A stretch of 64,000 nucleotides of DNA from contig JAUCBJ010004858.1 of the NCBI GenBank assembly GCA_032718475.1, forward strand, positions 1 through 64,000. The letters run 5' to 3'. The DNA comes from Nemertoderma westbladi (taxonomy: Eukaryota > Animalia > Xenacoelomorpha). Of this stretch, positions 15,601 to 63,570 are shown one piece after another. The notes beneath the pieces were generated by a model. It worked only from the letters and a program-made list of their open reading frames with translations, did no database searches and was not told the origin of the DNA. Position 1 is the stretch's first letter; the number at the start of each line of letters is the position of its first letter. A program made the position numbers and the translations under genes.

Positions 15601-18600
15601 ATGCTACACAACCCGTGTACGGTATAGATCCGATGGTTCACCTGTCAGATGCAGGGCGCAGTACTAGGGTAGGAAGAGGCGGTTTGCCCGTTCAATGTGG
15701 TGCGCAGCTGGCCACTCAAATACTCGACTGCCTATAAGAAATCATTTCGATACATTTAGATAATATACCCTGATTTAAACCTAATAAAGCCGATAGCTGT
15801 GCCTTTATCAGAAGACTCAGTAATTCAACCTTTTGTTTACAGACTGTTTTGTGTGTGTCTGTCCGCTCAACCCTAGTGTTTAAATTGAGTTTATACGAAT
15901 AAACATTTTCTATTGTTTGATTTTGTTATTGCTTTTTTGGATAATGTACTGTTTGTCTCCATACAATATCATTCATTTTTTACTTATAGAAAAAAAGCAA
16001 TTTATAACCTTAACATATAGCAATAATAAGAAATATTACATACGTCCTGCAATAGTTTCGAGCCAAAATTACGAATCTCACATACCCTGCGATAATAGTC
16101 ATCTCCATCAGTACATCCGCAGTATTTCTGATTGATACATTGAGATCCGCTAAGTACGTAACCGGCAACGCAAGCGCAGCCTGGGGCGGGGGGCGAAGAG
16201 CAACGGAGGGGGGCGTTGGGGTCCCTGCAGGTTGCCGGGCAACGGGGAGCAACTTCCGTATAAGCGCTGTTCGTGTTGCATTGTTCCGCTGCGGGAAAAA
16301 AAGACGAACATTTTATTATCCAGAGGAATCATAATAAATATTTATTTACAAAATATTTTTTATCTTTTCCTTATTTTAGTCTTGAGTGTTAAGAAAAATA
16401 AATATAATGTTTTTTTCTTCAGAAAAAAGTAAAATTATAAGTAATTTAATTTCACAATTTAAACATTTGCCCTTGACGGAAAGTGATAATTATATTCGAT
16501 TAAAAAATGTAAAATGACAATTATAATGTAAAATAACACTTTTTGTTACAATTTTAAATTGACCGAATTTCAATATTTAGTAAGAAATAGTTGTAGTTGT
16601 GGTAGAATTGGGTTTTGCGCATAAGGTCTTCAGTAACTTAAATTTACAAACAATATCGTAGCAAATACAGTAACATGTAGAGAGAAATACTAACGGCAGA
16701 ATGATGGCGACCTCCAAATGATACTGTCACCAACAGATGAGGGGTAACCCATATCTAGCAACGCTCGACGACATACGGCCTCGAAGAATGCGATGTAACG
16801 GCACAATACTTTCATATCGCCCTTATAAAAATAACAGAATATAAAAAATATGGAGTGAGAATTCCACTAAAATAAGAAATGTGACTTGAATGACAATTCT
16901 CAGTTGTATTACATACAGTATGGCTCAACAGTATGGCTTCCATTATCGGAAATGTTCGAGGGTCAGAAATTTGGTAATGTGTGCAAAGTGCATACTGTAC
17001 AACTGTAAAATGTACGAAACAACAAACACACGCAAACCTAATCAAACACATTATTTATTTTCAATTAATAACGAAATTCTACTCACGCCATAGGTACAGA
17101 CATCGACAACTCACGGAATAGGCGCAGACATCGACAACTCACGGCATAGGTACAGACATCGACAACTTACGGCATAGGTACAGACATCGACAACTCCCGG
17201 CATAGGTACAGACATCGACAACTCACGGAATAGGTACAGACATCGACAACTCACGGAATAGGTACAGACATCGACAACTCACGGAATACTGTAGGTACAG
17301 ACATCGACATCACACGGAATAGGTACAGACATCGACAACTCCCGGCATAGGTACAGACATCGACAACTCACGGAATACTGTAGGTACAGACATCGACATC
17401 ACACGGAATAGGTACAGACATCGACAACTCACGGCATAGGTACAGACATCGACAACACAAAGCATAGGTACAGACATCGACAACTCACGGCATAGGTACA
17501 GACATCGACCACACGGAATAGGTACAGACATCGACATCACACGGAATAGGTACAGACATCAACAACACACGGGATAGGTACATACATCGACAACTCACGG
17601 CATAGGTACAGACATCGACATCACACGGAATAGGTACAGACATCGACATCACACGGAATAGGTACAGACATCAACAACACACGGAATAGGTACAGACATC
17701 GACATCACACGGAATAGGAACAGACATCGACAACTCACGGCATAGGTACAGACATCGACATCACACGGAATAGGTACAGACATCAACAACACACGGAATA
17801 GGTACAGACATCGACAACTCACGGCATACGTACAGACATCGACATCACACGGAATAGCTACAGACATCGACAACCCACGGCATAGGTACAGACATCGACA
17901 ACTCACGGAATAGGTACAGACATCGACAACTCACGGCATAGGTACAGACATCGACAACTCACGGAATAGGTACAGACATCGACATCACACGGAATAGGTA
18001 CAGACATCAACAACACACGGAATAGGTACAGACATCGACAACTCACGGCATAGGTGCAGACATCGACAACACACAGAATAGGTACAGAGATCGACAACAC
18101 ACGGCATAGGTACAGACATCGACAACTCACGGAATAGGTACAGACATCGACATCACACGGAATAGGAACAGACATCGACAACTCACGGCATAGGTACAGA
18201 CATCGACATCACACGGAATAGGTACAGACATCAACAACACACGGAATAGGTACAGACATCGACAACTCACGGCATACGTACAGACATCGACATCACACGG
18301 AATAGCTACAGACATCGACAACCCACGGCATAGGTACAGACATCGACAACTCACGGAATAGGTACAGACATCGACAACTCACGGCATAGGTACAGACATC
18401 GACAACTCACGGAATAGGTACAGACATCGACATCACACGGAATAGGTACAGACATAGACAACACACGGAATAGGTACAGACATCGACAACTCACGGCATA
18501 GGTGCAGACATCGACAACACACAGAATAGGTACAGAGATCGACAACACACGGCATAGGTACAGACATCGACAACTCACGGCATAGGTACAGACATCGACA

Positions 18601-21600
18601 ACTCACGGAATAGGTACAGACATCGACATCACACGGAATAGGTACAGACATCGACAACAAACGGAATAGGTACAGACATCGACAACTGACGGCATAGGTA
18701 CAGACATCGACAACACACGGAATAGGTACAGACATCGACAACTCACGGCATAGGTACAGACATCGACAACTCACGGCATAGGTACAGACATCGACAACTC
18801 ACGGCATAGGTACAGACATCGACAACTCACGGCATAGGTACAGACATCGACAACTCACGGCATAGGTACAGATATCGACAACTCACGGCATAGGTACAGA
18901 CATCGACAACTCCCGGCATAGGTACAGACATCGACATCACACGGAATAGGTACAGACATCGACAACTCACGGCATAGGTACAGACATCGACAACTCACGG
19001 CATAGGTACAGACATCGACAACTCACGGCATAGGTACAGACATCGACATCACACGGAATAGGTACAGACATCGACAACTCACGGCATAGGTACAGACATC
19101 GACAACTCACGGCATAGGTACAGACATCGACAACTCACGGCATAGGTACAGACATCGACAACTCACGGCATAGGTACAGACATCGACAACTCCCGGCATA
19201 GGTACAGACATCGACAACTCACGGCATAGGTACAGACATCGACATCACACGGAATAGGTACAGATATCGACAACTCACGGCATAGGTACAGACATCGACA
19301 ACTCACGGCATAGGTACAGACATCGACAACTCACGGCATAGGTACAGACATCGACAACTCACGGCTTAGGTACAGAAATCGACAACTCACGGCATAGGTA
19401 CAGACATCGACAACTCCCGGCATAGGTACAGACATCGACAACTCACGGAATACTGTAGGTACAGACATCGACATCACACGGAATAGGTACAGACATCGAC
19501 AACTCACGGCATAGGTACAGACATCGACAACTCACGGCATAGGTACAGACATCGACAACTCACGGCATAGGTACAGACATCGACAACTCACGGCTTAGGT
19601 ACAGAAATCGACAACTCACGGCATAGGTACAGACATCGACAACTCCCGGCATAGGTACAGACATCGACAACTCACGGAATACTGTAGGTACAGACATCGA
19701 CATCACACGGAATAGGTACAGACATCGACATCACACGGAATAGGTACAGACATCGACAACTCACGGCATAGGTACAGACATCGACAACTCACGGCATAGG
19801 TACAGACATCGACAACTCACGGCATAGGTACAGACATCGACAACTCACGGCATAGGTACAGACATCGACAACTCCCGGCATAGGTACAGACATCGACAAC
19901 TCACGGAATACTGTAGGTACAGACATCGACATCACACGGAATAGGTACAGACATCGACAACTCATGGCATAGGTACAGACATCGACAACTGACGGCATAG
20001 GTACAGACATCGACAACACACGGAATAGGTACAGACATCGACATCACACGGAATAGGTACAGACATCGACATCACACGGAATAGGTACAGACATCGACAA
20101 CTCACGGAATAGGCGCAGACATCGACAACTCACGGCATAGGTACAGACATCGTAAAACTCACGGCATAGGTACAGACATCGACAACTCACGGCATAGGTA
20201 CAGACATCGACAACACACGGAATAGGTACAGACATCGACCACACGGAATAGGTACAGACATCGACATCACACGGAATAGGTACAGACATCAACAACACAC
20301 GGGATAGGTACATACATCGACAACTCACGGCATAGGTACAGACATCGACATCACACGGAATAGGTACATACATCGACAACACACGGAATAGGTACAGACA
20401 TCGACAACTCACGGCATAGGTACAGACATCGACAACTCACGGCATAGGTGCAGACATCGACAACACACAGAATAGGTACAGAGATCGACAACACACGGCA
20501 TAGGTACAGACATCGACAACTCACGGCATAGGTACAGACATCGACAACTCACGGAATAGGTACAGACATCGACATCACACGGAATAGGTACAGACATCGA
20601 CAACAAACGGAATAGGTACAGACATCGACAACTGACGGCATAGGTACAGACATCGACAACACACGGAATAGGTACAGACATCGACAACTCACGGCATAGG
20701 TACAGACATCGACAACTCACGGCATAGGTACAGACATCGACAACTCACGGCATAGGTACAGACATCGACAACTCACGGCATAGGTACAGACATCGACAAC
20801 TCACGGCATAGGTACAGATATCGACAACTCACGGCATAGGTACAGACATCGACAACTCCCGGCATAGGTACAGACATCGACATCACACGGAATAGGTACA
20901 GACATCGACAACTCACGGCATAGGTACAGACATCGACAACTCACGGCATAGGTACAGACATCGACAACTCACGGCATAGGTACAGACATCGACATCACAC
21001 GGAATAGGTACAGACATCGACAACTCACGGCATAGGTACAGACATCGACAACTCACGGCATAGGTACAGACATCGAAAACTCACGGCATAGGTACAGACA
21101 TCGACAACTCACGGCATAGGTACAGACATCGACAACTCCCGGCATAGGTACAGACATCGACAACTCACGGCATAGGTACAGACATCGACATCACACGGAA
21201 TAGGTACAGACATCGACAACTCACGGCATAGGTACAGACATCGACAACTCACGGCATAGGTACAGACATCGACAACTCACGGCATAGGTACAGACATCGA
21301 CAACTCACGGCTTAGGTACAGAAATCGACAACTCACGGCATAGGTACAGACATCGACAACTCCCGGCATAGGTACAGACATCGACAACTCACGGAATACT
21401 GTAGGTACAGACATCGACATCACACGGAATAGGTACAGACATCGACAACTCACGGCATAGGTACAGACATCGACAACTCACGGCATAGGTACAGACATCG
21501 ACAACTCACGGCATAGGTACAGACATCGACAACTCACGGCTTAGGTACAGAAATCGACAACTCACGGCATAGGTACAGACATCGACAACTCCCGGCATAG

Positions 21601-24600
21601 GTACAGACATCGACAACTCACGGAATACTGTAGGTACAGACATCGACATCACACGGAATAGGTACAGACATCGACATCACACGGAATAGGTACAGACATC
21701 GACAACTCACGGCATAGGTACAGACATCGACAACTCACGGCATAGGTACAGACATCGACAACTCACGGCATAGGTACAGACATCGACAACTCACGGCATA
21801 GGTACAGACATCGACAACTCCCGGCATAGGTACAGACATCGACAACTCACGGAATACTGTAGGTACAGACATCGACATCACACGGAATAGGTACAGACAT
21901 CGACAACTCATGGCATAGGTACAGACATCGACAACTGACGGCATAGGTACAGACATCGACAACACACGGAATAGGTACAGACATCGACATCACACGGAAT
22001 AGGTACAGACATCGACATCACACGGAATAGGTACAGACATCGACAACTCACGGAATAGGCGCAGACATCGACAACTCACGGCATAGGTACAGACATCGTA
22101 AAACTCACGGCATAGGTACAGACATCGACAACTCACGGCATAGGTACAGACATCGACAACACACGGAATAGGTACAGACATCGACCACACGGAATAGGTA
22201 CAGACATCGACATCACACGGAATAGGTACAGACATCAACAACACACGGGATAGGTACATACATCGACAACTCACGGCATAGGTACAGACATCGACATCAC
22301 ACGGAATAGGTACATACATCGACAACACACGGAATAGGTACAGACATCGACAACTCACGGCATAGGTACAGACATCGACAACACACGGAATAGCTACAGA
22401 CATCGACAACCCACGGCATAGGTACAGACATCGACAACTCACGGCATAGGTACAGACATCGACAACTCACGGAATAGGTACAGACATCGACAACTCACGG
22501 CATAGGTACAGACATCGACAACTCACGGAATAGGTACAGACATCGACATCACACGGAATAGGTACAGACATCGACAACACACGGAATAGGTACAGACATC
22601 GACAACTCACGGCATAGGTGCAGACATCGACAACACACGGAATAGGTACAGACATCGACAACACACGGCATAGGTACAGACATCGACAACTCACGGCATA
22701 GGTACAGACATCGACAACTCACGGCATAGGTACAGACATCGACAACTCACGGAATAGGTACAGACATCGACATCACACGGAATAGGTACAGACATCGACA
22801 ACACACGGAATAGGTACAGACATCGACAACTCACGGCATAGGTACAGACATCGACAACACACGGAATAGGTACAGACATCGACAACTCACGGCATAGGTA
22901 CAGACATCGACAATACACGGAATAGGTACAGACATCGACATCACACGGCATAGGTACAGACATCGACAACTCACGGAATAGGCGCAGACATCGAAGAGAC
23001 ATTCGTCGTAGGAAATCATAACGTCGATGAAGTTGGCGCACAACCCGAAGGGCCCGGTTGGGTCTGTTAGCAGCCCACACTGCTGGGCGGCGAAGGCCTG
23101 TACCTCAGCGGAACAGCTGACAGGAACCACGGGGCCATTGTAGTGGCAACTGAATATAGAAGAAATAGAATATATACAACAGTTGATAAACCAAGTTTAC
23201 GAGCAAACAGTAAGAACAGATAATTCATTACCGGATATACGATAGACCGGATAGACGTCGATCATTTTCATTAGACGTTTTAATTAAGGGTGTAACGGTT
23301 TTCGCCGCCGTTTTTTTTAAATAAAACAATTACGTTAGTCCAATGTCTATTTTGACTTCTCCAGGCCGTCCCGTCTTCAGGGTAAACATATGTAATAAAT
23401 AGTATTCAAAAACAGAGTAAGGCCCGCCGCACTCTAGAGATACAAGATGCAAGATACCAGATGCAAAAATCGTTCCCGACGTACACTAGAGATGCAAGAT
23501 GCAAAAATCGTTCCCGACGTACACTAGAGATGCAAGATGCAAGATGCATCGTATTTTATTTTATATATTGATAGCTTTTATGTTATTTATTTATTGCGTT
23601 TAAAATTTATTCCCATTATATATATCATTTCACGAGAGCATTATTGGATAAATCCAATAAATTACAAGACACCTGTGGCTGGCGTTATGGCAAAGTTATA
23701 TAATCAACTGCGAGATGATCCCGACACCACATACATTTGCGAATGATACTCTCATGTCCGTTTGGTACATTTGTTGCACTTTTGTCCCTAATTGATGGAA
23801 ACATCCGAAAGTGCAGCGCCAAGTTTAGAAAAGCGATTGGAGCGAAGGAAAAACTGTTAGTCACACTGAGGTGCAGTATAATATAATATTGGGTGGCAAC
23901 ACATGCTAATTAATATATTACTTTGATTATTTTAATGTATATTTCAAAGAATTTATCTCACTGCATCTCTAGTGTGCGTGCCTCCCATAGGATCTACATG
24001 TATTCTATAATTCGAGATGCAAAAAATTGAACATCGTGCATCGTCCTTCTTTGCATCTTGCATCTCTAGTGTGCGGCGGGCCTAAGGTGGCAGGCAGATA
24101 TAGTCTGTGCGAGAAATACTAATACTGGGCTAAAAACTACACGGTTCAGAAATTCGTATTGGGCGTAAGGTATAATATTACAGCGATAATCGGGCCTTAA
24201 ATGTAAAGTAGAGTAAAAAAATTTTTCGACCGCTATACTAGGGATTACGCAGAAAGCATTCTTACTATACTTACAGTATTTCCAGTGTGGTCCACTCAGA
24301 ACTCTACACCCAGACGAAACTGGTACTCAAATAGTAGCCATTCATGGATGCAAGAGTTGCGCTCCGGCTAGTCCATTTAAAGCATTCGTTACGAAACAAA
24401 TACCACCCCCCCCCCCCCCCCCCCCCCCCCCCAGCTGGGATCGAACCCACGACCTCCAGATAGATGTAAATTTAATACAACTATGGCGAATTAATGGGAC
24501 TATGGCTTTGATCTTAACTTACGGTCACTGCGGTAACGGGCAGTACATTAAAGCACCGCGGTACCAAGGATGCACTCTCTAAATTAACTTACTAGTACTG

Positions 24601-27600
24601 GAGATAATATCGCGATAACTAAGGATATAACTTACTAGTACTGGAGATACTGGAGATAATATCGCGATAACTAAGGATATAACTTACTAGTACTGGAGAT
24701 ACTGGAGATAATATCGCGATAACTAAGGATATAACTTACTAGTACTGGAGATACTGGAGATAATATCGCGATAACTAAGGATATAACTTACTAGTACTGG
24801 AGATACTGGAGATAATATCGCGATAACTAAGGATATAACTTACATAGTACTGGAGATACTGGAGATAATATCGCGATAACTAAGGATATAACTTACTAGT
24901 ACTGGAGATACTGGAGATAATATCGCGATAACTAAGGATATAACTTACTAGTACTGGAGATACTGGAGATAATATCGCGATAACTAAGGATATAACTTAC
25001 TAGTTCTGGAGATACTGGAGATAATATCGCGATAACTAAGGATATAACTTACTAGTACTGGAGATACTGGAGATAATATCGCGATAACTAAGGATATAAC
25101 TTACTAGTACTGGAGATACTGGAGATAATATCGCGATAACTAAGGATATAACTTACTAATTCTGGAGATAATATCGCGATAACTAAGGATATAACTTACT
25201 AGTACTGGAGATACTGGAGATAATATCGCGATAACTAAGGATATAACTTACTAGTACTGGAGATACTGGAGATAATATCGCGATAACTAAGGATATAACT
25301 TACTAGTACTGGAGATACTGGAGATAATATCGCGATAACTAAGGATATAACTTACTAGTACTGGAGATACTGGAGATAATATCGCGATAACTAAGGATAT
25401 AACTTACTAGTACAGGAGATAGTGGAGATAATATCGCGATAACTAAGGATATAACTTACTAGTACTGGAGATACTGGAGATAATATCGCGATAACTAAGG
25501 ATATAACTTACTAGTACTGGAGATACTGGAGATAATATCGCGATAACTAAGGATATAACTTACTAGTACTGGAGATACTGGAGATAATATCGCGATAACT
25601 AAGGATATAACTTACTAGTACTGGAGATACTGGAGATAATATCGCGATAACTAAGGATATAACTTACTAGTACTGGAGATACTGGAGATAATATCGCGAT
25701 AACTAAGGATATAACTTACTAGTACTGGAGATACTGGAGATAATATCGCGATAACTAAGGATATAACTTACTAGTACTGGAGATACTGGAGATAATATCG
25801 CGATAACTAAGGATATAACTTACTAGTACTGGAGATACTGGAGATAATATCGCGATAACTAAGGATATAACTTACTGAGTACTGGAGATACTGGAGATAA
25901 TATCGCGATAACTAAGGATATAACTTACTAGTACTGGAGATACTGGAGATAATATCGCGATAACTAAGGATATAACTTACTAGTACTGGAGATACTGGAG
26001 ATAATATCGCGATAACTAAGGATAGAAATTACTGGTACTGGAGATACTGGAGATAATATCGCGATAACTAAGGATATAACTTACTAGTACTGGTGATACT
26101 GGAGATAATATCGCGATAACTAAGGATATAACTTACTAGTACTGGTGATACTGGAGATAATATCGCGATAACTAAGGATATAACTTACTAGTACTGGAGA
26201 TACTGGAGATAATATCGCGATAACTAAGGATATAACTTACTAGTACTGGAGATACTGGAGATAATATCGCGATAACTAAGGATATAACTTACTAGTACTG
26301 GAAGATAATATCGCGATAACTAAGGATATAACTTACTAGTACTGGAGATACTGGAGATAATATCGCGATAACTAAGGATATAACTTACTAGTACTGGAGA
26401 TAATATCGCGATAACTAAGGATATAACTTACTCGTACTGGAGATAATATCGCGATAACTAAGGATATAACTTACTAGTACTGGAGATAGCTGGAGATAAT
26501 ATCGCGATAACTAAGGATATAACTTACTAGTTCTGGAGATACTGGAGATAATATCGCGATAACTAAGGATATAACTTACTAGTACTGGAGATGCTGGAGA
26601 TAATATCGCGATAACTAAGGATATAACTTACTAGTACTGGAGATACTGGAGATAATATCGCGATAACTAAGGATATAACTTACTAGTACTGGAGATACTG
26701 GAGATAATATCGCGATAACTAAGGATATAACTTACTAGTACTGGAGATAATATCGCGATAACTAAGGATATAACTTACTAGTACTGGAGATACTGGAGAT
26801 AATATCGCGATAACTAAGGATATAACTTACTAGTACTGGAGATACTGGAGATAATATCGCGATAACTAAGGATATAACTACTAGTCTGGAGATACTGGAG
26901 ATAATATCGCGATAACTAAGGATATAACTTACTAGTACTGGAGATACTGGAGATAATATCGCGATAACTAAGGATATAACTTACTAGTTACTGGAGATAA
27001 TATCGCGATAACTAAGGATATAACTTACTAGTACTGGAGATACTGGAGATAATATCGCGATAACTAAGGATATAACTTACTAGTACTGGAGATACTGGAG
27101 ATAATATCGCGATAACTAAGGATATAACTTACTAGTACTGGAGATACTGGAGATAATATCGCGATAACTAAGGATATAACTTACTAGTACTGGAGATACT
27201 GGAGATAATATCGCGATAACTAAGGATATAACTTACTAGTACTGGAGATACTGGAGATAATATCGCGATAACTAAGGATATAACGTACTAGTACTGGAGA
27301 TACTGGAGATAATATCGCGATAACTAAGGATATAACTTACTAGTACTGGAGATACTGGAGATAATATCGCGATAACTAAGGATATAACTTACTAGTACTG
27401 GAGATAATATCGCGATAACTAAGGATATAACTTACTAGTACTGGAGATACTGGAGATAATATCGCGATAACTAAGGATATAACTTACTAGTACTGGAGAT
27501 ACTGGAGATAATATCGCGATAACTAAGGATATAACTTACTAGTACTGGAGATACTGGAGATAATATCGCGATAACTAAGGATAGAAATTACTAGTACTGG

Positions 27601-36600: not shown

Positions 36601-39600
36601 TTTAATTATGAAACAAGGCAACTCTTATGTTAAAATGATGAGAAGATATTGTATTTGGAGAACTGGAGAGACACAAAACTAGATACAATTATTATTTTAT
36701 TTTAATTATTTCTAGGTAACTGTAGACTAATATGATTTGATATATATGTATATATCACAATAACAATTGATAATAAATAACCAACCACATATAATGAATA
36801 AATAATGAATGACTATGTACTTGTATGCTAACTCTTATGTTAAAAAAATTGTATAAATATAAAAATGGTTCGTTAAAAGTTCAGCAACGGGAGTTAGCCT
36901 TGCACCTCGCAGTTTGAGTTGGCTAATATTATGGAGGTGTCGGCAACTGGATGATCACAATTAATTAGTTAACTAATTTTAAAATTAATCAAGCTACTCT
37001 AAAAGTATTAGAATCAAATACTATTAATTAATTTTTAATTTTAATATTAAACTCACGTTGAGGACAGCAGTATCGAACTCTATAATCGAAACAGCTTACT
37101 CCGGCGGGCTGCAATGCATTCAAACAAACCAAGCCCGCACTGGGATCGTAAGCGGCAAATACTTGGCCCGTGTTGGCTGCAGGATTGTTGGTTGTCTTCT
37201 CGCGGGCGTCAATTGCTCTGAAAATAATTAAAACGTAAATAGTATAAGTCTTCATGTAATAAAGATAAATAAATATAAATAGTAACTATTATCATAACAA
37301 TTTTTTAGGTAACAATTAATTTATGCATAAATTAATATCAACCTATCAACCTACAGGAAAAAAGACAATATCATAAGAATGTTAAAAAAAAAACTGTAAA
37401 ACACGTATTTTTTAATTATGTTGCTGTTTTTTTTAATTAAATTAGAGTTTCTTCATTAAAATAGTAAAATAGGAAAAAACTCCCATAGACAGGAAATCCT
37501 GGAAAGAAAGTAGCGTGGGTAATAGTAGCTGGGTGCAGCTGCTATAGAGGATCGGGCAAAAAATAAGGATTAGAAATATGAAGGAATAAAAATATGGATT
37601 GGAACCCAGCAGACTCTGCAGCAGACGCGAAGCGCTGCCTGCTGTCTGTCCTCATCGCTGCCGGAATATCAAACGGACGCCAAGGTCTAACCGACGCATC
37701 TCACCTGCCAGCCCGAGAATAAAAACAACTAAGTTTGAATTTCTCGCGGAAAATTCGAGTAAACTAAAACAACTAAACTAAAGTTAGCTACAAATTTACT
37801 GCTTATCGCATTGCCATTACACACTTACTCTGGATTGTTACACATAAACACGTTGGCAGGGATGGAAACAAGTAGACTAGCTAATGACTCATCCTCGCCA
37901 ATGTTATCCGGTTGACCGACATCAAAGTATCCTGTCCAGGATCCACGACTGCACTCAACAATCGGATCTGAAAATAAAAAAAATACAACCTCTTTACATT
38001 TTATAGTTTGTCACTCATGGCGGTTTCCGTATGTAGTTCTCGTATGGCTTGTATCGCATGTACACTGCCCGGCTGCATGAGCCCGGCTAGGTAATACCCG
38101 ATTATCTTCTGTTTGTGAAAGTATTTATGCAGACAAACATTAAAAAAAGTAATTATGTGCCACTTAGTGGAGTGCCGTAGCGAAAAAATCATTACCAATG
38201 TGCCAATAGTTAGTTACCTTGTTGCTATGTCAAAAATCAATTTTGCTATAAGGAAAGAAACATTGAAAGTGATAATAATTTCTGATTTTTTTGAGCATGG
38301 GAATTTTGTAATCTTGGTACTTACAAAAAAATTTGGTACATTTGCCACAATTTCAGCTTTTTTACGTCGATAAGCCATTCCACTATCTTGGTAGCGCCAC
38401 AAATTTGCAGGCTAGTTATTAGAAATAATTATATTTATTCCAAAATTGTAACATTACTCAACGCCGTTAGTATTAACAGCGAGTTGTTATTTAGCACTTT
38501 ACAACTTTAGAGGACTTTACAGCATTGTATTGGCCTGTACATTTAGTATTGTATTTGGTGTTATTGTTTACGTGGTAACCCATGACGGCGTTAAGTAATG
38601 TCCCCCTAGTGGACATTACTTAACGCCGTCATGGTTACCACGTAAACAATAGGTGGTAATTTGCCTGACAGCCAGATAGGCCTACTGCATTACCTACCGG
38701 TAGGCGGGGTATAGGCTATTAATGACCAGTAGGGCCTAGCTATATTATTATTACATGGCTCCAAACGCCACCAGAAATATAAGCTAACTTATTTATAACA
38801 TAATTTATGTCATTTTTACATTTATTTATACGCAACTAATATAATTTGTGCAGTTTCTATCACTTATAATGTATATGTACAATCATTTCGTACTGTTAAA
38901 ATTTTGGAATAAAACTACATACATACTTGTTGCAAAGTACTTTACAGTGTTCTGATCCTCGTGGATTTATTTTCACTCACTCACTAACGTTCGTTCGTGT
39001 AACAAAGCCACTCGGATCATCACACTGTAAAGTGCTACTTTACACACAAGTATGTAAATAGTTATTGCTACACATTGTAGACAATAAACAATATTGATAA
39101 CTGTTCAATTTTATGATTACAGATCACAATAATAAGTTCAAAAAACTACCAATAATTATAGCCATGACAACCAACATATTCCCTAACCGTTCTGGGGGCA
39201 ACAGAAGCGGACTTCGTAATCGTTGCAATCCTCTCCGTCGGGTTGGTCGGCGTTCCGGCAGGCTATCCCGTTCCGATCGAAGTGGAAGAGAACGTCGTCC
39301 GTGTGGAAGGGGTGGTAGTGGGCGTTGGTTGTACGAGCTTCCGAGAACACCGGAGTCAGACAATCGTGGTTCTCGAACCCTAGAAATATGTGACTTTCGT
39401 TAGCATTATAATTCCAACATTAATGTAATAAATTATTCAAATAGAAAACTTCAATTTAAATATTAAATATGTTAAAAATACACGATTACAACCTTGCCGT
39501 ATTTGATATTAGTCTATTTTAGAATATAATAATTATTGTTGATTGTTATTAATATTCAAATTAATATATTTTAATATCTACTTATACAGTCTACAGCTGT

Positions 39601-42600
39601 GTGACTATCTACTAACTTACGGCTGTGACTATCTACTAACTTACATAGTCTACTGCTATGACTATCTACTAACTTACATAGTTTACGGATGTGACTATCT
39701 ACTAACTTACATAGTCTACGCCTGTGACTATCTACTAACTTACATAGTCTACGGCTGTGACTATCTACTAACTTACATAGTCTACGACTGTGACTATCTA
39801 CTAACTTACATAGTCTACGGCTGTGACTATCTACTAACTTACATAGTCTACGACTGTGACTATCTACTAACTTACGGCTGTGACTATCTACCAACTTACA
39901 TAGTCTACGGCTGTGACTATCTACTAACTTACATAGTCTATGGCTGTGACTATCTACTAACTTACATAGTCTACGGCTGTGACTATCTACCAACTTGCGG
40001 CTGTGACTATCTACCAACTTACATAATCTACGGCTGTGACTATCTACTAACTTATGTAGTCTACGGCTGTGACTATCTACTAACTTACATAGTCTACGCC
40101 TGTGACTATCTACTAACTTACATAGTCTACGACTGTGACTATCTACTAACTTACATAGTCTACGGCTGTGACTATCTACTAACTTACATAGTCTACGGCT
40201 GCGACTATCTACTAACTTACATAGTCTACAGCTGTGACTATCTACTAACTTACATAGTCTACGGCTGTGACTATCTACTAACTTACATAGTCTACGGCTG
40301 TGACTATCTACTAACTTACGGCTGTGACTATCTACTAACTTACATAGTCTACGACTGTGACTATCTACTAACTTACGGCTGTGACTATCTACTAACTTAT
40401 GTAGTCTACGGCTGTGACTATCTACTAACTTACATAGTCTACGACTGTGACTATCTACTAACTTACGGTTGTGACTATCTACCAACTTACATAGTCTACG
40501 GCTGTGACTATCTACTAACTTACATAGTCTACGGCTGTGACTATCTACTAACTTATATAGTCTACGGCTGTGACTATCTACTAACTTACATAGTCTACGG
40601 CTGTTACTATCTACTAACTTACGGCTGTGACTATCTACCAACTTACATAATCTACGGCTGTGACTATCTACTAACTTATATAGTCTACGGCTGTGACTAT
40701 CTACTAACTTACATAGTCTACGGCTGTGACTATCTACCAACTTACGGCTGTGACTATCTACCAACTTACATAATCTACGGCTGTGACTATCTACTAACTT
40801 ATATAGTCTACGGCTGTGACTATCTACTAACTTACATAGTCTACCGCTGTGACTATCAACTAACTTACATAGTCTACGGCTGTGACTATCTACCAACTTA
40901 CATAATCTACGGCTGTGACTATCTACTAACTTACATAGTCTACGGCTGTTACTATCTACTAACTTACGGCTGTGACTATCTACCAACTTACATAGTCTAC
41001 GGCTGTGACTATCTACCAACTTACATAGTCTACGGCTGTGATTATCTACCAACTTACATAGTCTACGGCTGTGACTATCTACCAACTTACATAGTCTACG
41101 GCTGTGACTATCTACCAACTTACATAGTCTACGGCTGTGACTATCTACCAACTTACATAGTCTACGGCTGTGACTATCTACCAACTTACATAGTCTACGG
41201 CTGTGACTATCTACCAACTTACATAGTCTACGGCTGTGACTATCTACTAACTTACATAGTCTACGGCTGTGACTATCTACTAACTTACATAGTCTACGGC
41301 TGTGACTATCTACCAACTTACATAGTCTACGGCTGTGACTATCTACCAACTTACATAGTCTACGGCTGTGACTATCTACTAACTTACATAGTCTACGGCT
41401 GTGACTATCTACCAACTTACATAGTCTACGGCTGTGACTATCTACCAACTTACATAGTCTACGGCTGTGACTATCCTCCAATATACTGGCGAGGAGTTCC
41501 CAGTCTCCTGTTCCAGTCGCGTCGTCCCGATCGATCCATGAACTGAAAGCTCCAGCGCAATCTCTCGATGCTGAGAAAATGTGTAAAAATAATAATAATT
41601 TATTTATTAAGAGTGCAATACAGAGCAATGTCGAGTGCGCGTTACAAGCGGAGATTTTAATTAACAGTTAAGGTAGGGCGGGTTGACCTCAGTTTGACCT
41701 CAGTGAATTATTAATCGTTTATCACATTTTAAATTTCCAGAAGGGAATGTCAATAACTTTACTTGTACCGGTGCGACGGTGATCCCGTCACACGAACGTT
41801 TTAACATCCAAAATATACCCTCTATAGAGTCAGACTATTATACCCTGCTCCATAAAATGTCAAAAAGTCACGAGATAACAAATAAGAATCGCATCTAAAA
41901 TAAAACTCACGTGGAGTTGGTTGGGTTGGGTCGCCGTCGGAACAGAATACATTGACAGCCGAATTACCACCGCACCATTGATTCGCGTTGCCAAAGCAAT
42001 GAATGTCGCACATCTCCTCAGCCTCCATTTCGGGTGGCATATGGTAGGAGCAGCCGCACTAAAATAAAAAGAGTAAATAAAAATTACGAATTTTGCTATG
42101 CTCCAGTAGTTAGCAATAAATTGGCGAATGATGTTGGCCTTAGACGTAGTCGTACTAAATTAAATAGTCTAGACACTGCCTCATCATCACTTGGAAACTT
42201 ACCGGCACCACGTCTGACTTACTGGGGTAAAGTATCTTACTAAGTTGAAAGAGCAATCAGCAGCAGCTCTCATCAATAATAAGTTCAAGTAAAGTAAATA
42301 GTTACTAGAAGCAGTTACTCTTACGATGCTCAATTAAGCGTAAAATCGCTATGGTTACGGCAAAAATGTCGAATTTATCGCAACCTCGACAATGTAGGAA
42401 GTATCTTACCTTATTTCCTTGTCCCAGAATGGTAAAGGGAAGCATAAACATAGCGCACATCGTCTGGCAATAATTCACAGTCATTACGGCGGATATGTCT
42501 GTAGCGACAAACATAGCTATCGCATCGGAATAGCGTGGGGAAAAACATCCCTTGAAGCAGTAATCAACTGAAAAATTCAATACAAAGGAATACCGCGTAT

Positions 42601-45600
42601 TAATTAATGAGACTTTATGAGATTAACGCGACTTAATGAGATTGTATTAATTCAGTGACTTGGACCTTATTGAGATTGTATAAATTCAGTGACTTGGACC
42701 TTAATGAGATTGTATTAATTCAGTGACTTGACCTTAATGAGATTGTATTAATTCAGTGACTTGGACCTTAATGAGATTGTATTAATTCAGTGATTAGGAC
42801 CTTAATGAGATTGTATTAATTCAGTGACTTGGACCTTAATGAGATTGTATTAATTCAGTGATTAGGACCTTAATGAGATTGTATTAATTCAGTGACTTGG
42901 ACCTTAATGAGATTGTATTAATTCAGTGACTTGGACCTTAATGAGATTGTATTAATTCAGTGACTTGGACCTTAATGAGATTGTATTAATTCAGTGACTT
43001 GGACCTTAATGAGATTGTATTAATTCAGTGATTAAGACCTTAATGAGATTGTATTAATTCAGTGACTTGGACCTTAATGAGATTGTATTAATTCAGTGAT
43101 TAGGACCTTAATGAGATTGTATTAATTCAGTGACTTGGACCTTAATGAGATTGTATTAATTCAGTGATTAGGACCTTAATGAGATTGTATTAATTCAGTG
43201 ACTTGGACCTTAATGAGATTGTATTAATTCAGTGACTTGGACCTTAATGAGATTGTATTAATTCAGTGATTAGGACCTTAATGAGATTGTATTAATTCAG
43301 TGACTTGGACCTTAATGAGATTGTATTAATTCAGTGATTAAGACCTTAATGAAATTGTATTAATTCAGTAACTTGGACCTTAATGAGATTGTATTAATTC
43401 AGTGACTTGGACCTTAATGAGATTGTATTAATTCAGTGACTTGGACCTTAATGAGAGTGTATTAATTCAGTGACTTGGACCTTAATGAGATTGTATTATT
43501 TCAGTGACTTGGACCTTATTGAGATTGTATTAATTCAGTGACTTGGACCTTAATGAGATTGTATTAATTCAGTGACTTGGACCTTAATGAGATTGTATTA
43601 ATTCAGTGACTTGGACCTTAATGAGATTGTATTAATTCAGTGACTTGGACCTTAATGAGATTGTATTAATTCAGTGACTTGGACCTTAATGAGATTGTAT
43701 TAATTCAGTGACTTGGACCTTAATGAGATTGTATTAATTCAGTGACTTGGACCTTAATGAGATTGTATTAATTCAGTGACTTGGACCTTAATGAGATTGT
43801 ATTAATTCAGTGACTTGGACCTTAATGAGATTGTATTAATTCAGTGACTTGGACCTTAATGAGATTGTATTAATTCAGTGACTTGGACCTTAATGAGATT
43901 GTATTAATTCAGTGACTTGGACCTTAATGAGATTGTATTAATTCAGTGACTTGGACCTTAATGAGATTGTATTAATTCAGTGACTTGGACCTTAATGAGA
44001 TTGTATTAATTCAGTGACTTGGACCTTAATGAGATTGTATTAATTCAGTGACTTGGACCTTATTGAGATTGTATTAATTCAGTGACTTGGACCTTAATGA
44101 GATTGTATTAATTCAGTGACTTGGACCTTATTGAGATTGTATTAATTCAGTGACTTGGACCTTAATGAGATTGTATTAATTCAGTGACTTGGACCTTAAT
44201 GAGATTGTATTAATTCAGTGACTTGGACCTTAATGAGATTGTATTAATTCAGTGACTTGGACCTTAATGAGATTGTATTAATTCAGTGACTTGGACCTTA
44301 TTGAGATTGTATTAATTCAGTGACTTGGACCTTAATGAGATTGTATTAATTCAGTGACTTGGACCTTAATGAGATTGTATTAATTCAGTGACTTGGACCT
44401 TAATGAGATTGTATTAATTCAGTGACTTGGACCTTAATGAGATTGTATTAATTCAGTGACTTGGACCTTATTGAGATTGTATTAATTCAGTGACTTGGAC
44501 CTTATTGAGATTGTATTAATTCAGTGACTTGGACCTTAATGAGATTGTATTAATTCAGTGACTTGGACCTTAATGAGATTGTATTAATTCAGTGACTTGG
44601 ACCTTAATGAGATTGTATTAATTCAGTGACTTGGACCTTAATGAGATTGTATTAATTCAGTGACTTGGACCTTAATGAGATTGTATTAATTCAGTGACTT
44701 GGACCTTAATGAGATTGTATTAATTCAGTGACTTGGACCTTAATGAGATTGTATTAATTCAGTGACTTGGACCTTAATGAGATTGTATTAATTCAGTGAC
44801 TTGGACCTTAATGAGATTGTATTAATTCAGTGACTTGGACCTTAATGAGATTGTATTAATTCAGTGACTTGGACCTTAATGAGATTGTATTAATTCAGTG
44901 ACTTGGACCTTCATGAGATTGTATTAAATTTGAAACAGAGATAGTTGCACCTCCCTCCTCCTTGCTGGGTGAGCCAGAATTTTTATTTTTGCTTTCATTC
45001 TTTAGCTACAAGCGTTTAAAAAAGTGTCTCCGTCGATATTGCAAGAATTCAGAATAATGTAACGCAATCTGAATTACGTTGAAAAATAGCTGAGATAATA
45101 TGGGCGTCCGAAAGTTGTATGGGTTTACATCTGCGTGAAGCTATTTAATTCAGTATAAAAAAACGCACAACATTCTGTAACATTTTGCATATCTATAAAT
45201 AGCTGCGCAATAGTAATATTGTACACCATCTCCCTCAATACAACAACCATTTTTAGCAAGTCGGAGTCCCGGAGTCTCTATTAAACTTGTATGAAGATAG
45301 TTCGACACCTATTCTTACCGCTGCTCTGGCAGGGCCGGATTTTTCCACTTTCAAATCATTTAGCTACAACAAGCCGTTAAAAATGCATATTTAGCAATAT
45401 TTGACCTCCTCTTAATTTTAATCTTTTGAATGAAATCTAGATAGAACCGCTTTCATCTGCAGATTCCGAATCTAAAAACCGTTTTCATTTTCACCAATAA
45501 CTTCCGGATATATTATCATTTTTCTAAGAAATCCTTCATGACACACCGATTAAGTAGGAGGGATTTAAAACTAACTCTTTTTCAAATTTCATTAGGATTA

Positions 45601-48600
45601 TGTATAAAAATTTGGTGGGGATCCAAGTTACTGAAGGAATTTACTATATTCTAGGACATGGTGTAAACAGTGTCAACATGATGTGCTTCGAACATTAAAT
45701 CCAGAGGGATCTAAAGTTGAACTTTATTAAACTTTGGCGACGACGTTAACTTTGGTTATATTAACTTTGGTTTTATCTACCAACTTTGGTTATATCTACT
45801 AACTTTGGTTTTATCTACCAACTTTGGTTATATCTACTAACTTCATTTAGGTATATCTTCTTACTTTAGTTATATCTACTTCATGTAGGGCGGGGTAGCT
45901 CAGTTGGTTGAGCGCCGGGCCTGCAATCTATTGGTTGTAGGTTCAGCCCCGCCAGGGTCCACTCTGCCTTTCATCCACTGGGGTCGATAAAATGAGTACC
46001 AGTTAAATAACTGGGAGCAAATCTTGGGATAGGAGTAGCGCCCACCCCTACCCTCGGGTAGCAGCTATCGAAAGAGGAGCCTTCGGGTCGCCTCCGGCTT
46101 CGGCCGACTGTTTGCTTTGCTTGCTACTTCATTTAGGTATATCTTCTTCCTTTAGTTATACCTACTAACTTTGGTTTTATCTACCAACTTTGGTTATATC
46201 TCCTAAGTTTGGTTTTATCTACCAACTTTGGTTATATCTACATCCTTTCGTTATATCTACTAACTTTGGTTACATCTACCCCCTTTTGTTATATCTACTT
46301 CATTTAGTTATATCTTCTTCCTTTAGTTATATCTACTAACTTTGGTTATATCTACTAATTTTTGTTATATCTACAAACTTTGGTTATATCTACGAACTTT
46401 GGTTATATCTACTAACTTTGGTTTTATCTACCAACTTTGGTTATATCTACATCCTTTCGTTATATCTACTAACTTTGGTTACATCTACCCCCTTTTGTTA
46501 TATCTACTTAATTTAGTTATATCTTCTTCCTTTAGTTATATCTACGAACTTTAGTTATATCTACTAACTTTGGTTATATCTACGAACTTTGGCTATATCT
46601 ACTAACTTTGTTATATCTACTCCGTTTAGATATATCTACTAACTTTGGTTATATCTACTAACTTTGGTTATATCTACTAACTTTGTTATATCTACTCCGT
46701 TAAGATATATCTACTAACTTTGTTATATCTACTAACTTTGTTATATCTACTAACTTTGTTATATCTACTAACTTTGTTATATCTACTAACTTTGTTATAT
46801 CTACTCCGTTTAGATATATATACTAACTTTGTTATATCTACTCCGTTTAGATATATCTACTAACTTTGTTATATCTACTTCATTTAGGCATATCTTCTTA
46901 CTTTAGTTATATCTACTAACTTTTGTTATATCTACAAACTTTGGTTATATCTACTAACTTTGGTTATATCTACTAACTTTGTTATATCTACTCCGTTTAG
47001 ATATATATACTAACTTTGTTATATCTACTCCGTTTAGATATATCTACTAACTTTGTTATATCTACTTCATTTAGGCATATCTTCTTACTTTAGTTAAATC
47101 TACTTCATTTAGGCATATCTTCTTACTTTAGTTATATCTACTTCATTTAGGTATATCTTCTTACTTTAGTTATATCTACTTCATTTAGGTATATCTTCTT
47201 ACTTTAGTTATATCTACGAACTTTGGTTATATCTTCTTCCTTTAGTTATATCTACTAACTTTGTTATATCTACTCCGTTTAGCTATATCTACTAACTCTG
47301 GTTACATCTACTCCCTTTAGTTATATCTATTCCATTTAGGTATATCTTCTTCCTTTAGTTATATCTACTCCGTTAGGCATATCTTCTTCCTTTAGTTATA
47401 TCTACTCCATTAGGTTATATCAACGCAGTTTGTTTATATTATATACGAATATATTTAGGTTATAGTTACTCATTTTGTTATATAGACTTACTTTTGTTAT
47501 TCCCTATGGTTATATATCTACTCACTTTGGTTATATCTTGGATTTGATGGATCTATCCCGCTCGTGTCCAGGTTATTCTCAGCATCTTCATCTGACGTAA
47601 CTCCTTCAAAGGTTTCCAATCCATCTGAAAGTTACAAGAGAGTTTTTATACAGAATTACATTCAATGTATTTGGCTCTAATCTCGGACATTCCGCATTAT
47701 TACATTCAATGTATTTGGCTCTAATCTCGGACATTCCGCATTATTACATTCAATGTATTTGGCTCTAATCTCGCACATTCTGCATTATTACATTCAATGT
47801 ATTTGGCTCTAATCTCGGACATTCCGCATTATTACATTCAATGTATTCGGCTCTAATCTCGGACATTCCGCATTATTACATTCAATGTATTTGGCTCTAA
47901 TCTTTGACATTCCCCATTATTACATTCAATGTATTTAGCTCTAATCTCGGACATTCTGCATTATTAATTCAATGTATTTGGCTCTAATCTTTGACATTCC
48001 CCATTATTACATTCAATGTATTTAGCTCTAATCTCGGACATTCTGCATTATTAATTCAATGTATTTGGCTCTAATCTCGAACATTCCGCATTATTACATT
48101 CAATGTATTTGGCTCTAATCTCGGACATTCTGCATTATTAATTCAATGTATTTGGCTCTAATCTCGGACATTCCGCATTATTAATTCAATGTATTTGGCT
48201 CTAATCTCGGACATTCCGCATTATTACATTCAATGTATTTGGCTCTAATCTCGGACATTCCGCATTATTACATTCAATGTATTTGGCTCTAATCTCGGAC
48301 ATTCCGCATTATTACATTCAATGTATTTGGCTCTAATCGCGGACATTCCGCATTATTAGATTCAATTTATTTGGCTCTAATCTCGGACATTCCGCATTAT
48401 TAGATTCAATTTATTTGGCTCTAATCTCGGACATTCCGCATCATTACATTCAATGTATTTGGCTCTAATCTCGGACATTCCGCATTATTACATTCAATGT
48501 ATTTGGCTCTAATCTCGGACATTCCGCGTTATTAGATTCAATGTATTTGGCTCTAATCTCGGACATTCCGCATTATTACATTCAATGTATTTGGCTCTAA

Positions 48601-60834: not shown

Positions 60835-61502
60835 CAAACTTAATTTTTAACTTTACATACAAAACTAGATTTCACAATGCCATAATAATAATGGAATAGT
60901 AGTAATGGAATATAGACAATATAGTTGACATTGCCTACATACAACAAATAGTTCCTATAAATTATTATTATTCTGGGAGTTTCTGGATTACAATAATGAA
61001 ATAATGTTTATTTATGTTTTTATTTTGTTTGTTTGTTTATTTATTATGTTTCTCTAAAAAGTTTTAGAAAATTGGATCAATGCTATGCCTAAAGGAACAA
61101 AGTGATTTAAAAAGTTAAATATTAATATATTAAGTAATTAATATAAGTATTCTGATGACTGAAGATTTACATCCCGCGTGCTTGCACGCCCTATTATAGT
61201 TAACTCGTAATAGTCATACGTAGTATTACTTAATTATTTTAGTTTTTTTTAATTAAATTTTGCCTTAATTTTTCGATCTATTGTTTTTGTATAATTTTGG
61301 TAACTTTACCTTTATTATTTTATATTATAATTACTCAGCAACCGGAGTATTTGACGAATTAAGAAAACAATAATTAATTATTAATCAAATATTGGGCGTG
61401 TAGATGATAGCACGATAGTACAAGTTAGTGTTATTATTGCTCATACAAATTAGTTAAATTAGAAATAAAATTAAATTTAGAATCAACTCACGAATGACTT
61501 AC

Positions 61503-61661: not shown

Positions 61662-63570
61662 CTATATTGTGTGGGGCATGGTATATATATACACCATACA
61701 CCTACCTATATTGTGTGGGGCATGGTATATATATACACCATACACCTACCTATATTGTGTGGGGCATGGTATATATATACACCATACACCTACCTATATT
61801 GTGTGGGGCGTGGTATATATATACACCACACACCTACCTATATTGTGTGGGGCATGGTATATATATACACCATTGATACACCTACCTATATTGTGTGGGG
61901 CATGGTATATATATACACCATACACCTACCTATATTGTGTGGGGAATGGTATATATATACACCATACACCTACCTATATTGTTTGGGACATGGTATATAT
62001 ATACACCATTGATACACCTACCTATATTGTGTGGGGCATGGTATATATATATACACCTACCTATATTGTGTGGGGAATGGTATATATATACACCATACAC
62101 CTACCTATATTGTTTGGGACATGGTATATATATACACCATACACCTACCTATATTGTGTGGGCCATGGTATATATATACACCATACACCTACCTATATTG
62201 TGTGGGGCATGGTATATATATACACCATACACCTACCTATATTGTGTGGGGAATGGTATATATATACACCATACACCTACCTATATTGTGTGGGGCATGG
62301 TATATATATACACCATACACCTACCTATATTGTGTGGGGAATGGTATATATATACACCATACACCTACCTATATTGTTTGGGACATGGTATATATATACA
62401 CCATACACCTACCTATATTGTGTGGGGCATGGTATATATATACACCATACACCTACCTATATTGTGTGGGGAATGGTATATATATACACCATACACCTAC
62501 CTATATTGTGTGGGGAATGGTATATATATACACCATACACCTACCTATATTGTTTGGGACATGGTATATATATACACCATTGATACACCTACCTATATTG
62601 TGTGGGGCATGGTATATATATACACCATACACCTACCTATATTGTGTGGGGCATGGTATATATATACAACATACACCTACCTATATTGTGTGGGGCATGG
62701 TATATATATACACCATACAGCTACCTATATTGTGTGGGGCATGGTATATATATACACCATACACCTACCTATATTGTGTGGGGCATGGTATATATATACA
62801 CCATACACCTACCTATATTGTGTGGGGCGTGGTATATATATACACCATACACCTACCTATATTGTGTGGGGCGTGGTATATATATACACCATACACCTAC
62901 CTATATTGTGTGGGGCGTGGTATATATATACACCATACACCTACTTATATTGTGTGGGGCATGGTATATATATACACCATACACCTACCTATATTGTGTG
63001 GGGCATGGTATATATATACACCATACACCTACCTATATTGTGTGGGGCATGGTATATATATACACCATACACCTACCTATATTGTGTGGGGCGTGGTATA
63101 TATATACACCATACACCTACCTATATTGTGTGGGGCGTGGTATATATATACACCATACACCTACCTATATTGTGTGGGGCGTGCGTGGTATATATATACA
63201 CCATACACCTACCTATATTGTGTGGGGCATGGTATATATATACACCATACACCTACTTATATTGTGTGGGGCATGGTATATATATACACCATACACCTAC
63301 CTATATTGTGTGGGGCGTGGTATATATATACACCATACACCTACCTATATTGTGTGGGGCGTGGTATATATATACACCATACACCTACCTATATTGTGTG
63401 GGGCGTGGTATATATATACACCATACACCTACCTATATTGTGTGGGGCGTGGTATATATATACACCATACACCTACCTATATTGTGTGGGGCGTGGTATA
63501 TATATACACCATACACCTACTTATATTGTGTGGGGCGTGGTATATATATACACCATACACCTACCTATAT
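61662..63570. repeat. Minisatellite, 44-bp unit CTATATTGTGTGGGGCATGGTATATATATACACCATACACCTAC, ~43 copies
   Basis: Direct reading; minus strand has ATAG|GTAGGT in each unit and an internal ATGGT..ACCAT hairpin. Confidence 0.97.

What the first reader, a model, noticed from the sequence alone, without database searches (positions are those of the whole stretch)
17081..47525. Splice-donor-seeded minisatellites: five unrelated intronic arrays are tandem copies of their own exon end and/or 5' splice site
Seen in sequence: at exons 2, 5, 9, 13 and 14 the array begins at the first intron base. The unit is the last 13-22 exon nt plus the donor for exons 2, 5, 9 and 14 (AGATATAACCAAA|GT(G/T)AGT; GATAGTCACAGCCGTAGACTAT|GTAAGT; GCTAGAACCAAAGAG|GTAGGC; TCGATGTCTGTACCTATGCC|GTGAGT). 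For exon 13 the unit starts with the donor (GTAAGTTATATCC...). The units share no sequence, so these are independent events. In three arrays the distal copy ends in a good donor followed by unique intron DNA (GGC|GTGAGTAG at ~17086, A|GTAAGTTAAT at ~24592, CAG|GTGAGCC at ~31427), as expected if the junction itself was amplified. Inference: a mechanism targets splice junctions for tandem amplification (e.g. splicing-coupled pausing or R-loops with slippage), or such arrays are retained as U1 landing pads or alternative donors. I know of no named system of this kind.
Basis: partly seen in the sequence, partly recalled or inferred. Interest (0 to 1): 0.88.

Follow-up and report, generated by a model that had tools for sequence, protein, structure and literature searches.

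The report
Five splice-donor minisatellites in mucin-like gene
In an animal's mucin-like gene, four exon ends with their splice signal, and a fifth splice signal alone, are copied head-to-tail 59 to 209 times into the next intron; the original signal is likely the one used, so this is a dense, likely harmless case of a repeat type already named "mirage" in lancelets, though why such repeats crowd at exon ends remains open.

Summary
A 26-exon mucin/FCGBP-like gene (minus strand, 1431 codons, no stop) has arrays at the donors of exons 2, 5, 9, 13 and 14: units 19-52 bp, 59-209 copies, 18 kb together. Four units hold 13-22 exon bases; exon 13's holds one. Exon 14's unit encodes conserved C8-domain residues, so it came from the exon. 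Only the first donor gives the family's cysteine spacing (9 residues; 328 of 391 homologous motifs). Contigs of a second sample show three arrays' units at high depth. No RNA junction was seen.

The type is named: lancelet "mirages" and the human F7, CBS and 6-16 repeats, where the upstream donor wins. The scan noted it before, in 19 windows of this genome and in at least 22 genomes (unchecked notes).

Still unexplained: 5 of 10 large arrays inside the gene cover a donor, against 0.35-1.2 expected (P 1e-5 to 4e-3; up to 0.03 with small arrays; window picked after the fact). None covers an acceptor. GC content and donor strength do not explain it. Side result: exon 5's array is in frame and stop-free for 1.88 kb. 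New member of a known kind; interest 0.3.

The parts
431..55877 (-). Host gene, 26 coding exons in the window: signal-peptide-like start, WSC, three WxxW, two VWD-C8-TIL blocks, chitin-binding domain; gel-forming mucin / FCGBP / zonadhesin-like (family label from my own knowledge of this domain set); runs on beyond exon 26
   Evidence: Exons with AG/GT ends and matching phases, 4293 nt, 1431 codons, 0 stops; Pfam hits on single exons; 940 relatives of exon 11 at E<=0.001
47526..47624 (-). Exon 2 (phase 1 donor)
45748..47538 (-). Exon 2 donor array: 19-bp unit (13 exon + 6 intron bases), 79 copies, oldest-looking (15% from consensus), first 120 nt degenerate
45862..46148 (.). About 270-bp insertion that splits the exon 2 array; holds a weak tRNA-like match, likely a SINE
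   Evidence: 267-nt unit; Rfam tRNA E=0.033, below the gathering score; 11-nt flanking repeat, which the array's own period could also give
41454..41570 (-). Exon 5 (first half of WxxW domain 1; phase 1 donor)
39618..41475 (-). Exon 5 donor array: 33-bp unit (22 exon + 11 intron), 59 copies; units of 33 and 24 bp keep the frame; no stop for 1880 nt; 44 downstream in-frame GT copies
35312..35463 (-). Exon 9 (first half of WxxW domain 3; phase 0 donor)
31408..35326 (-). Exon 9 donor array: 35-bp unit (15 exon + 20 intron), 108 copies; exon copy equals the consensus; last copy (donor at 31427) differs at 8 of 35; stop 9 nt after the donor
   Evidence: distal border bridged by contigs of runs X1, X2, X3
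29194..29312 (-). Exon 13 (end of VWD 1; phase 2 donor)
24585..29194 (-). Exon 13 donor array: 52/43-bp unit starting at the donor (1 exon base), 90 copies, all with GT, youngest-looking (0.6% from consensus); the 9-base donor motif stands at both ends; last donor at 24592
   Evidence: joint 'goes back 52' in X1, X2, X3
22975..23149 (-). Exon 14 (first half of C8 domain 1; phase 0 donor)
17079..22994 (-). Exon 14 donor array: 28-bp unit (20 exon + 8 intron), 209 copies, 5.9 kb; exon part covers the codons of D-V-C-A-Y-S; exon-identical tails at copies 33, 102 and 208; last donor at 17086
16695..16821 (-). Exon 15 (second half of C8 domain 1); joined to the first donor of exon 14 it gives the family's 9-residue cysteine spacing
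61662..63570 (-). Candidate sixth donor array (unproven): 44-bp unit with a strong donor 6 nt inside its first copy, on the gene's strand; would belong to an upstream non-coding exon
   Evidence: donor score 8.1 (real donors 5.5-12.2), chance 0.03 per unit, one of 24 unit-strand tests on the 12 non-donor arrays; no RNA

Best explanation
These are five independent 'mirage' minisatellites: a short stretch across (or, at exon 13, starting at) a splice donor was duplicated in tandem, likely by ordinary slippage or repair at short repeats, then likely expanded by unequal exchange, and is likely tolerated because the first donor is predicted to be the one used. Shown: the units match their own junction; the exon 14 unit derives from coding sequence; inner copies are homogenised while end copies lag; the first donor restores the conserved protein at exon 14. 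Inferred: the seeding step (a 9-base exact repeat bounds the exon 13 unit and a 5-of-6 repeat the exon 9 unit; no clear seed at exon 14); first-donor use in RNA (from the F7 experiments and the protein alignment); neutrality. A duplication across a donor leaves the exon and its first donor intact and puts all extra copies in the intron, so it costs nothing under upstream-first choice, and stops after +1 to +141 nt would send four of five read-through forms to decay. That explains survival, not excess. For the 4- to 14-fold local excess I think a non-adaptive birth bias at exon edges most likely, inflated by short native introns (238-259 nt of unique DNA left in introns 5, 9 and 14), a genome rich in minisatellites (46% of the window) and the choice of window; its cause is untested.
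For: Unit-junction identity and copy structure. Exon 14/15 joined at the first donor: 472 of 569 spanning alignments to homologous domains have no length difference, D and C encoded in the unit are kept in 90% and 95%, spacing 9 in 328 of 391 motifs, while the only in-frame downstream donor would add 28 residues. Exon 13/14 and 9/10 joins are colinear within a few residues (458 and 33 spanning alignments). End copies diverge (exon 9 last copy 8 of 35; exon 14 exon copy 3 of 20), as described for mirages. Divergence from 0.6% to 15% and a SINE-like insertion point to different ages. Array donors are ordinary in strength (7.7-9.6, others 9.0). F7 minigenes: the most upstream of identical donors is used (PMC1557585). 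Units of arrays 9, 13 and 14 at many times single-copy depth in a second sample.
Against: Neutral tolerance alone predicts 0.35-1.2 donor arrays of 10, not 5; weighting seeds by GC does not raise it (0.29-0.39). The junctions after exons 2 and 5 had no homologous alignment (0 hits), so first-donor use there has no support, and exon 5 has 44 equal in-frame donors. In human 6-16 and CBS nearby pseudo-donors are used in part (PMC1557585 introduction). Acceptor-spanning mirages exist (BflGb6; unchecked notes on this genome), so the donor-only pattern here (5 to 0, sign test P=0.06) may not be a firm rule.
Confidence: 0.68

Rival explanations
1. A splicing- or transcription-coupled process (polymerase pausing, R-loops or breaks at the 5' splice site) seeds duplications at donors specifically; the arrays are its footprint.
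For: 5 of 10 large arrays cover a donor and 0 an acceptor; the exon 13 unit starts at the donor to within one base; a sixth array has a strong donor in its first unit; unchecked notes report the same in 19 windows of this genome.
Against: Unit starts lie at -1, -13, -15, -20 and -22, with no shared register, length or motif besides the donor; donor strength is ordinary; units hold no next-exon sequence, so no mRNA template; post-hoc window; a secreted mucin-like gene is not an obvious germ-line transcript (inference).
Confidence: 0.17
2. No bias at all: the genome makes minisatellites everywhere, native introns are short, and the reader picked an extreme gene.
For: 12 large arrays in 64 kb; with introns capped at 300 nt and the small arrays counted, P(5 or more of 16) is 0.033; very many windows were scanned.
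Against: All other nulls give P 1e-5 to 8e-3; notes on other genes of this genome report 3-4 donor arrays per gene (unchecked, and also picked by readers).
Confidence: 0.08
3. The arrays are kept by selection as U1 landing pads, spare donors or sources of longer isoforms; exon 5's in-frame array would give a variable-length, cysteine-bearing repeat in the protein.
For: Exon 5: frame open for 1880 nt, both unit lengths divisible by three, 44 in-frame donors equal to the real one; exon 13: 90 of 90 copies keep GT.
Against: GT varies about as much as the rest of the unit in arrays 5, 9 and 14 and is absent from 49 of 81 copies at exon 2; exon 13's array is only 0.6% diverged, so nothing has had time to decay; four of five arrays stop within 141 nt; exon 5's open frame needs only a unit length divisible by three and 11 stop-free bases, spread by homogenisation.
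Confidence: 0.05
4. Assembly artefact: junction reads were looped out.
Against: Copies carry structured variants and an insertion; unit depth is far above single-copy depth in two samples of two studies; the distal border of array 9 is bridged in X1, X2 and X3; head-to-tail joints of 52 and 56 bases are seen.
Confidence: 0.02

Closest known systems
Lancelet 'mirage' minisatellites (Adh3, globins BflGb6 and BflGb9, troponin C, PGBD5). Seen: passages of PMC3087553 and PMC3902484; the naming paper, Canestro et al. 2002, only as cited there (not held)
   Same: Tandem units spanning an exon-intron border; unit size inside their 10-160 bp range; many but not all copies keep the splice signal; inner copies homogenised, end copies excluded; mechanism of birth called unclear there too
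   Different: 59-209 copies and 1.8-5.9 kb against 3-6 copies in BflGb6; five in one gene, all at donors, whereas lancelet mirages hit both borders; exon 13's unit holds almost no exon; splicing not measured here
Human donor-spanning VNTRs: F7 intron 7 (37 bp), and 6-16/IFI6, CBS intron 13, LMNB2, PDGF intron 4 as cited. Seen: abstract and passages of PMC1557585; Turri et al. 1995 not held
   Same: First unit holds the exon end and the real donor; identical pseudo-donors follow; F7's unit holds only 4 exon bases, close to exon 13 here
   Different: 5-25 copies there; one array reported per gene; upstream-first choice was shown in mammalian cells, not in this animal
Intron gain by tandem duplication (Rogers model; Fig. 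7 model of PMC3087553; repeats at exon-intron borders in PMC2812944, passages)
   Same: A duplication that carries splice signals
   Different: Here the acceptor lies in unique DNA 238-1446 nt past the array and does not resemble the unit; the introns look older than their arrays

Membership tests
mirage minisatellite | Tandem unit spans an exon-intron border | tested here: met
   Exons 2, 5, 9, 14: 13, 22, 15, 20 exon bases plus the donor
mirage minisatellite | Same feature, exon 13 array | tested here: inconclusive
   One exon base only; the unit starts at the donor, so it abuts more than spans
mirage minisatellite | Unit of minisatellite size (10-160 bp in PMC3087553) | tested here: met
   19, 28, 33, 35, 52 bp
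mirage minisatellite | Many but not all copies keep the splice signal | tested here: met
   GT in 32 of 81 (exon 2), 44 of 59, 95 of 108, 90 of 90, 183 of 209
mirage minisatellite | Concerted evolution inside, end copies excluded | tested here: met
   Mean 0.6-5% from consensus in four arrays; exon 9 last copy 8 of 35 off; exon 14 exon copy 3 of 20 off and matched by the second-last copy
mirage minisatellite | Normal splicing is undisturbed | tested here: inconclusive
   Indirect only: first-donor joins give a stop-free 1431-codon frame and family-typical spacing at exons 9, 13, 14; no transcript seen
mirage minisatellite | Length varies between haplotypes or cells | not testable with these tools
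   Only short-read contigs, whose depth is no copy number
F7-type donor VNTR | Identical pseudo-donors follow the real donor | tested here: met
   Copies scoring at least as well as the real donor: 44 of 49 (exon 5), 84 of 110 (exon 9), 112 of 201 (exon 14), 19 of 81 (exon 2)
F7-type donor VNTR | The most upstream donor is used | not testable with these tools
   Needs cDNA reads; protein alignment favours it at exon 14
intron gain by tandem duplication | The intron's acceptor end derives from the duplicated unit | tested here: not met
   No periodic match across any of 25 acceptors (best score 7); exon tail against intron end and intron head against next exon: 2 of 50 tests under p=0.05 (introns 5 and 9), as chance gives, though both fall on array introns

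The most novel reading that the evidence does not exclude
In this animal a process tied to the 5' splice site makes donors true hot spots for the birth of minisatellites, several-fold above the rest of the intron, so that mirages are a genome-wide mutational footprint of splicing on DNA; and where the unit keeps the frame, as at exon 5, the array is a ready-made variable coding repeat that downstream donors can switch on, a route by which mucin-type tandem repeats could be born.
Probability: 0.2. Interest if true: 0.7.

Novelty: new member of a known kind. Interest (0 to 1): 0.3.

Why it matters
As it stands: a dense, large example of a named oddity, and a trap for annotation, since each array offers dozens of false donors and exon 5's array looks like a 600-codon open frame. 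It is also a natural test of upstream-first donor choice with up to 200 rivals in an invertebrate. If the excess at donors holds genome-wide it would tie repeat birth to gene structure, which the papers I read leave open (PMC3087553 calls the mechanism unclear); that needs one genome-wide count, not more single genes.

Tried and rejected
No whole genome is held, so no genome-wide test. No RNA holder listed among 6 runs; which donor is used could not be read. X1 may be the window's own sample; X2-X4 are one sample; X5 covers only dispersed repeats. Search for full-length relatives of exon 11 by shared words: 0 of 31 candidates; the HMMER search found them, without names. Atlas look-up of exon 26 gave no result, so the animal's group was not fixed. 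A frameshift I suspected by eye at exon 15 was my misreading. GC-biased seeding does not raise the expected donor count. Intron birth by duplication not supported. Arrays ending 23-112 nt before acceptors: P 0.01-0.03 on full lengths, 0.06-0.69 with capped introns, so not counted. In one search the exon 13 copies were mis-anchored and the exon 2 GT count failed on a length filter; I use for exon 13 and for exon 2. Paper searches listed no genome-wide test of mirage enrichment; the library lacks most subscription papers, one search listed 25 of 32 and I read titles and abstract starts only, and no supplements were opened. PMC10078293 (passages) did not bear on the question.
Full report
Host gene. 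The window is animal DNA; no whole genome is held. From the sequence I built a minus-strand model of 26 coding exons from 55877 to 431, all with AG/GT ends and matching phases, 4293 nt, 1431 codons, no stop. Single exons hit WSC, Mucin2_WxxW, VWD, C8, TIL and CBM_14 (11 of 19 stretches scanned gave host-gene domains, 2 gave retrotransposon domains, 6 nothing). This domain set is that of gel-forming mucins, FCGBP and zonadhesin (my own knowledge). The model rests on frame and homology, not on RNA.

The observation. TRF finds 12 large arrays; with the small ones, 46% of the window is tandem repeat. Five cover a donor: exon 2 (19 bp, 79 copies), exon 5 (33 bp, 59), exon 9 (35 bp, 108), exon 13 (52/43 bp, 90), exon 14 (28 bp, 209), 18 kb in all. 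Units hold 13, 22, 15, 1 and 20 exon bases. A scan of all 26 donors and 25 acceptors for periodic self-match gives scores 60, 60, 39, 48 at exons 5, 9, 13, 14, score 10 at exon 2, at most 8 at the other 21 donors and at most 7 at acceptors. The distal donors are at 17086, 24592 and 31427 as stated. Exon 2 is the weakest case: its first 120 intron bases are degenerate, but 14 of 79 units carry its 13-base tail exactly. Exon 13 is a different shape: intron sequence between two copies of a 9-base donor motif.

Real DNA. Three of 6 listed runs hold the locus, from two samples; X1 may be the source. On contigs, bins at the edges of arrays 9, 13 and 14 have summed depths of 262-3011 against 14-47 for single-copy contigs, head-to-tail joints of 52 and 56 bases appear, and the distal border of array 9 is bridged in X1, X2 and X3. 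The tool warns that depth is no copy number.

Direction and donor choice. Against 150 homologous proteins, the exon 14/15 join at the first donor aligns with no length difference in 472 of 569 spanning alignments; the Asp and Cys encoded inside the unit are kept in 90% and 95%; the gap to the next Cys is 9 residues here and in 328 of 391 homologous motifs. So the unit came out of the exon, and only the first donor makes a normal C8 domain; the one in-frame downstream donor (+84 nt) would add 28 residues. Joins 13/14 and 9/10 are colinear within a few residues; joins after exons 2 and 5 had no alignments. Reading past the donor meets a stop at +5, +9, +1 and +141 nt for exons 2, 9, 13, 14, but at +1880 nt for exon 5, whose 33- and 24-bp units keep the frame and offer 44 equal donors.

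History. Mean distance from consensus is 0.6% (exon 13), 2.9% (5), 4.6% (9), 5.0% (14) and 15.3% (2); array 2 also carries a SINE-like insertion. That points to different ages (inference). End copies lag: exon 14 differs from its array at 3 of 20 bases and is matched by the second-last copy; array 9's last copy differs at 8 of 35 while the exon copy equals the consensus. The latter leaves open that the working donor of exon 9 was overwritten from the array (inference; needs array-free alleles). Short repeats bound the unit at exon 13 (9 of 9) and exon 9 (5 of 6); none is clear at exon 14.

Is it more than chance? With arrays collapsed to one unit and seeds placed uniformly, 10 large arrays in the gene span give 0.35-0.51 expected donor hits against 5 (P 1e-5 to 7e-5; for 4, P 3e-4 to 1e-3); with 6 small arrays added, P 1e-4 to 7e-4. 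The two large arrays upstream of exon 1 were left out, as no exons are known there. Capping introns at 800, 500 or 300 nt raises the expectation to 0.66-1.18 (P 2e-4 to 4e-3; 0.003-0.033 for 16 arrays). GC weighting changes nothing, and the five donors are of average strength. No array covers an acceptor (0.33-0.46 expected under uniform seeding; 5 to 0, P=0.06). The window was picked for this pattern, so this is a local excess, not a genome-wide result.

Mechanism. Most likely: a local duplication crosses a donor, unequal exchange expands it, and it is tolerated because exon and first donor stay intact and the upstream donor wins, as shown for human F7 (PMC1557585, abstract and passages). Tolerance explains survival but not excess; I favour a non-adaptive birth bias at exon edges plus short native introns and window choice, cause untested. 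A splicing-coupled hot spot is possible (0.17) but the units share no register or length and hold no next-exon sequence. Selection for U1 pads is unlikely: GT is not clearly better kept than the rest of the unit.

Known kind. I recalled the lancelet 'mirages' and confirmed them in PMC3087553 and PMC3902484 (passages): repeats spanning exon-intron borders, harmless to splicing by RT-PCR, homogenised inside with the ends excluded, origin unclear. Four arrays meet the structural definition; exon 13's is borderline. Seven searches listed no genome-wide enrichment test, within the library's limits. The scan's own notes list 19 windows of this genome and 111 findings in at least 22 genomes with the same reading; they are unchecked leads, and two of them report acceptor arrays, which made me soften the donor-only rule.

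Verdict. Real, ordinary in kind, unusual in density and size; the excess at donors and the in-frame exon 5 array are the parts worth a test. Interest 0.3.

Noticed in passing
window 61662-63570 and about 61502, minus strand: A 44-bp array has a strong donor 6 nt into its first unit, and another consensus-like donor stands near 61502. Exon 1 starts with ATG right after an acceptor, so upstream non-coding exons are implied; this may be a sixth mirage.
   Followed up: partly
window 698-776, 47655-49365, 42632-44927, 8370-9987: Four arrays that cover no splice site end 23, 31, 65 and 112 nt before an acceptor; not significant once introns are capped.
   Followed up: yes
introns 5, 7, 9 and introns 14, 21: The three WxxW domains and the two C8 domains have their inner introns at different places and phases, while introns 11-13 and 15 match introns 18-20 and 22 (by eye). 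The arrays with long exon tails (5, 9, 14) sit at unshared positions; the donor-only array (13) sits at a shared one.
   Followed up: partly
window about 49950-55400, plus strand, intron 1: BEL/Pao retrotransposon remains (DUF1759, Peptidase_A17), followed by two open frames of 333 and 324 codons (53305-54303, 54093-55064) without Pfam hit.
   Followed up: partly
window 13590-15734, plus strand, intron 16: Open frame of 715 codons opposite to the host gene, no Pfam hit, with paired Cys/His near its start and 21-bp repeats inside; likely a mobile element.
   Followed up: partly
window 874-956, plus strand, intron 25: tRNA-Leu (TAG) gene inside an intron.
   Followed up: no
window 35835-35939 and 36282-36442, intron 8: 15-bp GC-rich repeats in both orientations, resembling the ends of a small transposon.
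   Followed up: no
window 8039-8258, exon 17: Encodes a run of seven arginines in eight residues between the two VWD blocks, a possible cleavage site.
   Followed up: no
window 58577-60833: 37-bp array upstream of the gene whose last unit ends in an acceptor-like site on the gene's strand (score 5.2, chance 0.12 per unit); not significant.
   Followed up: partly
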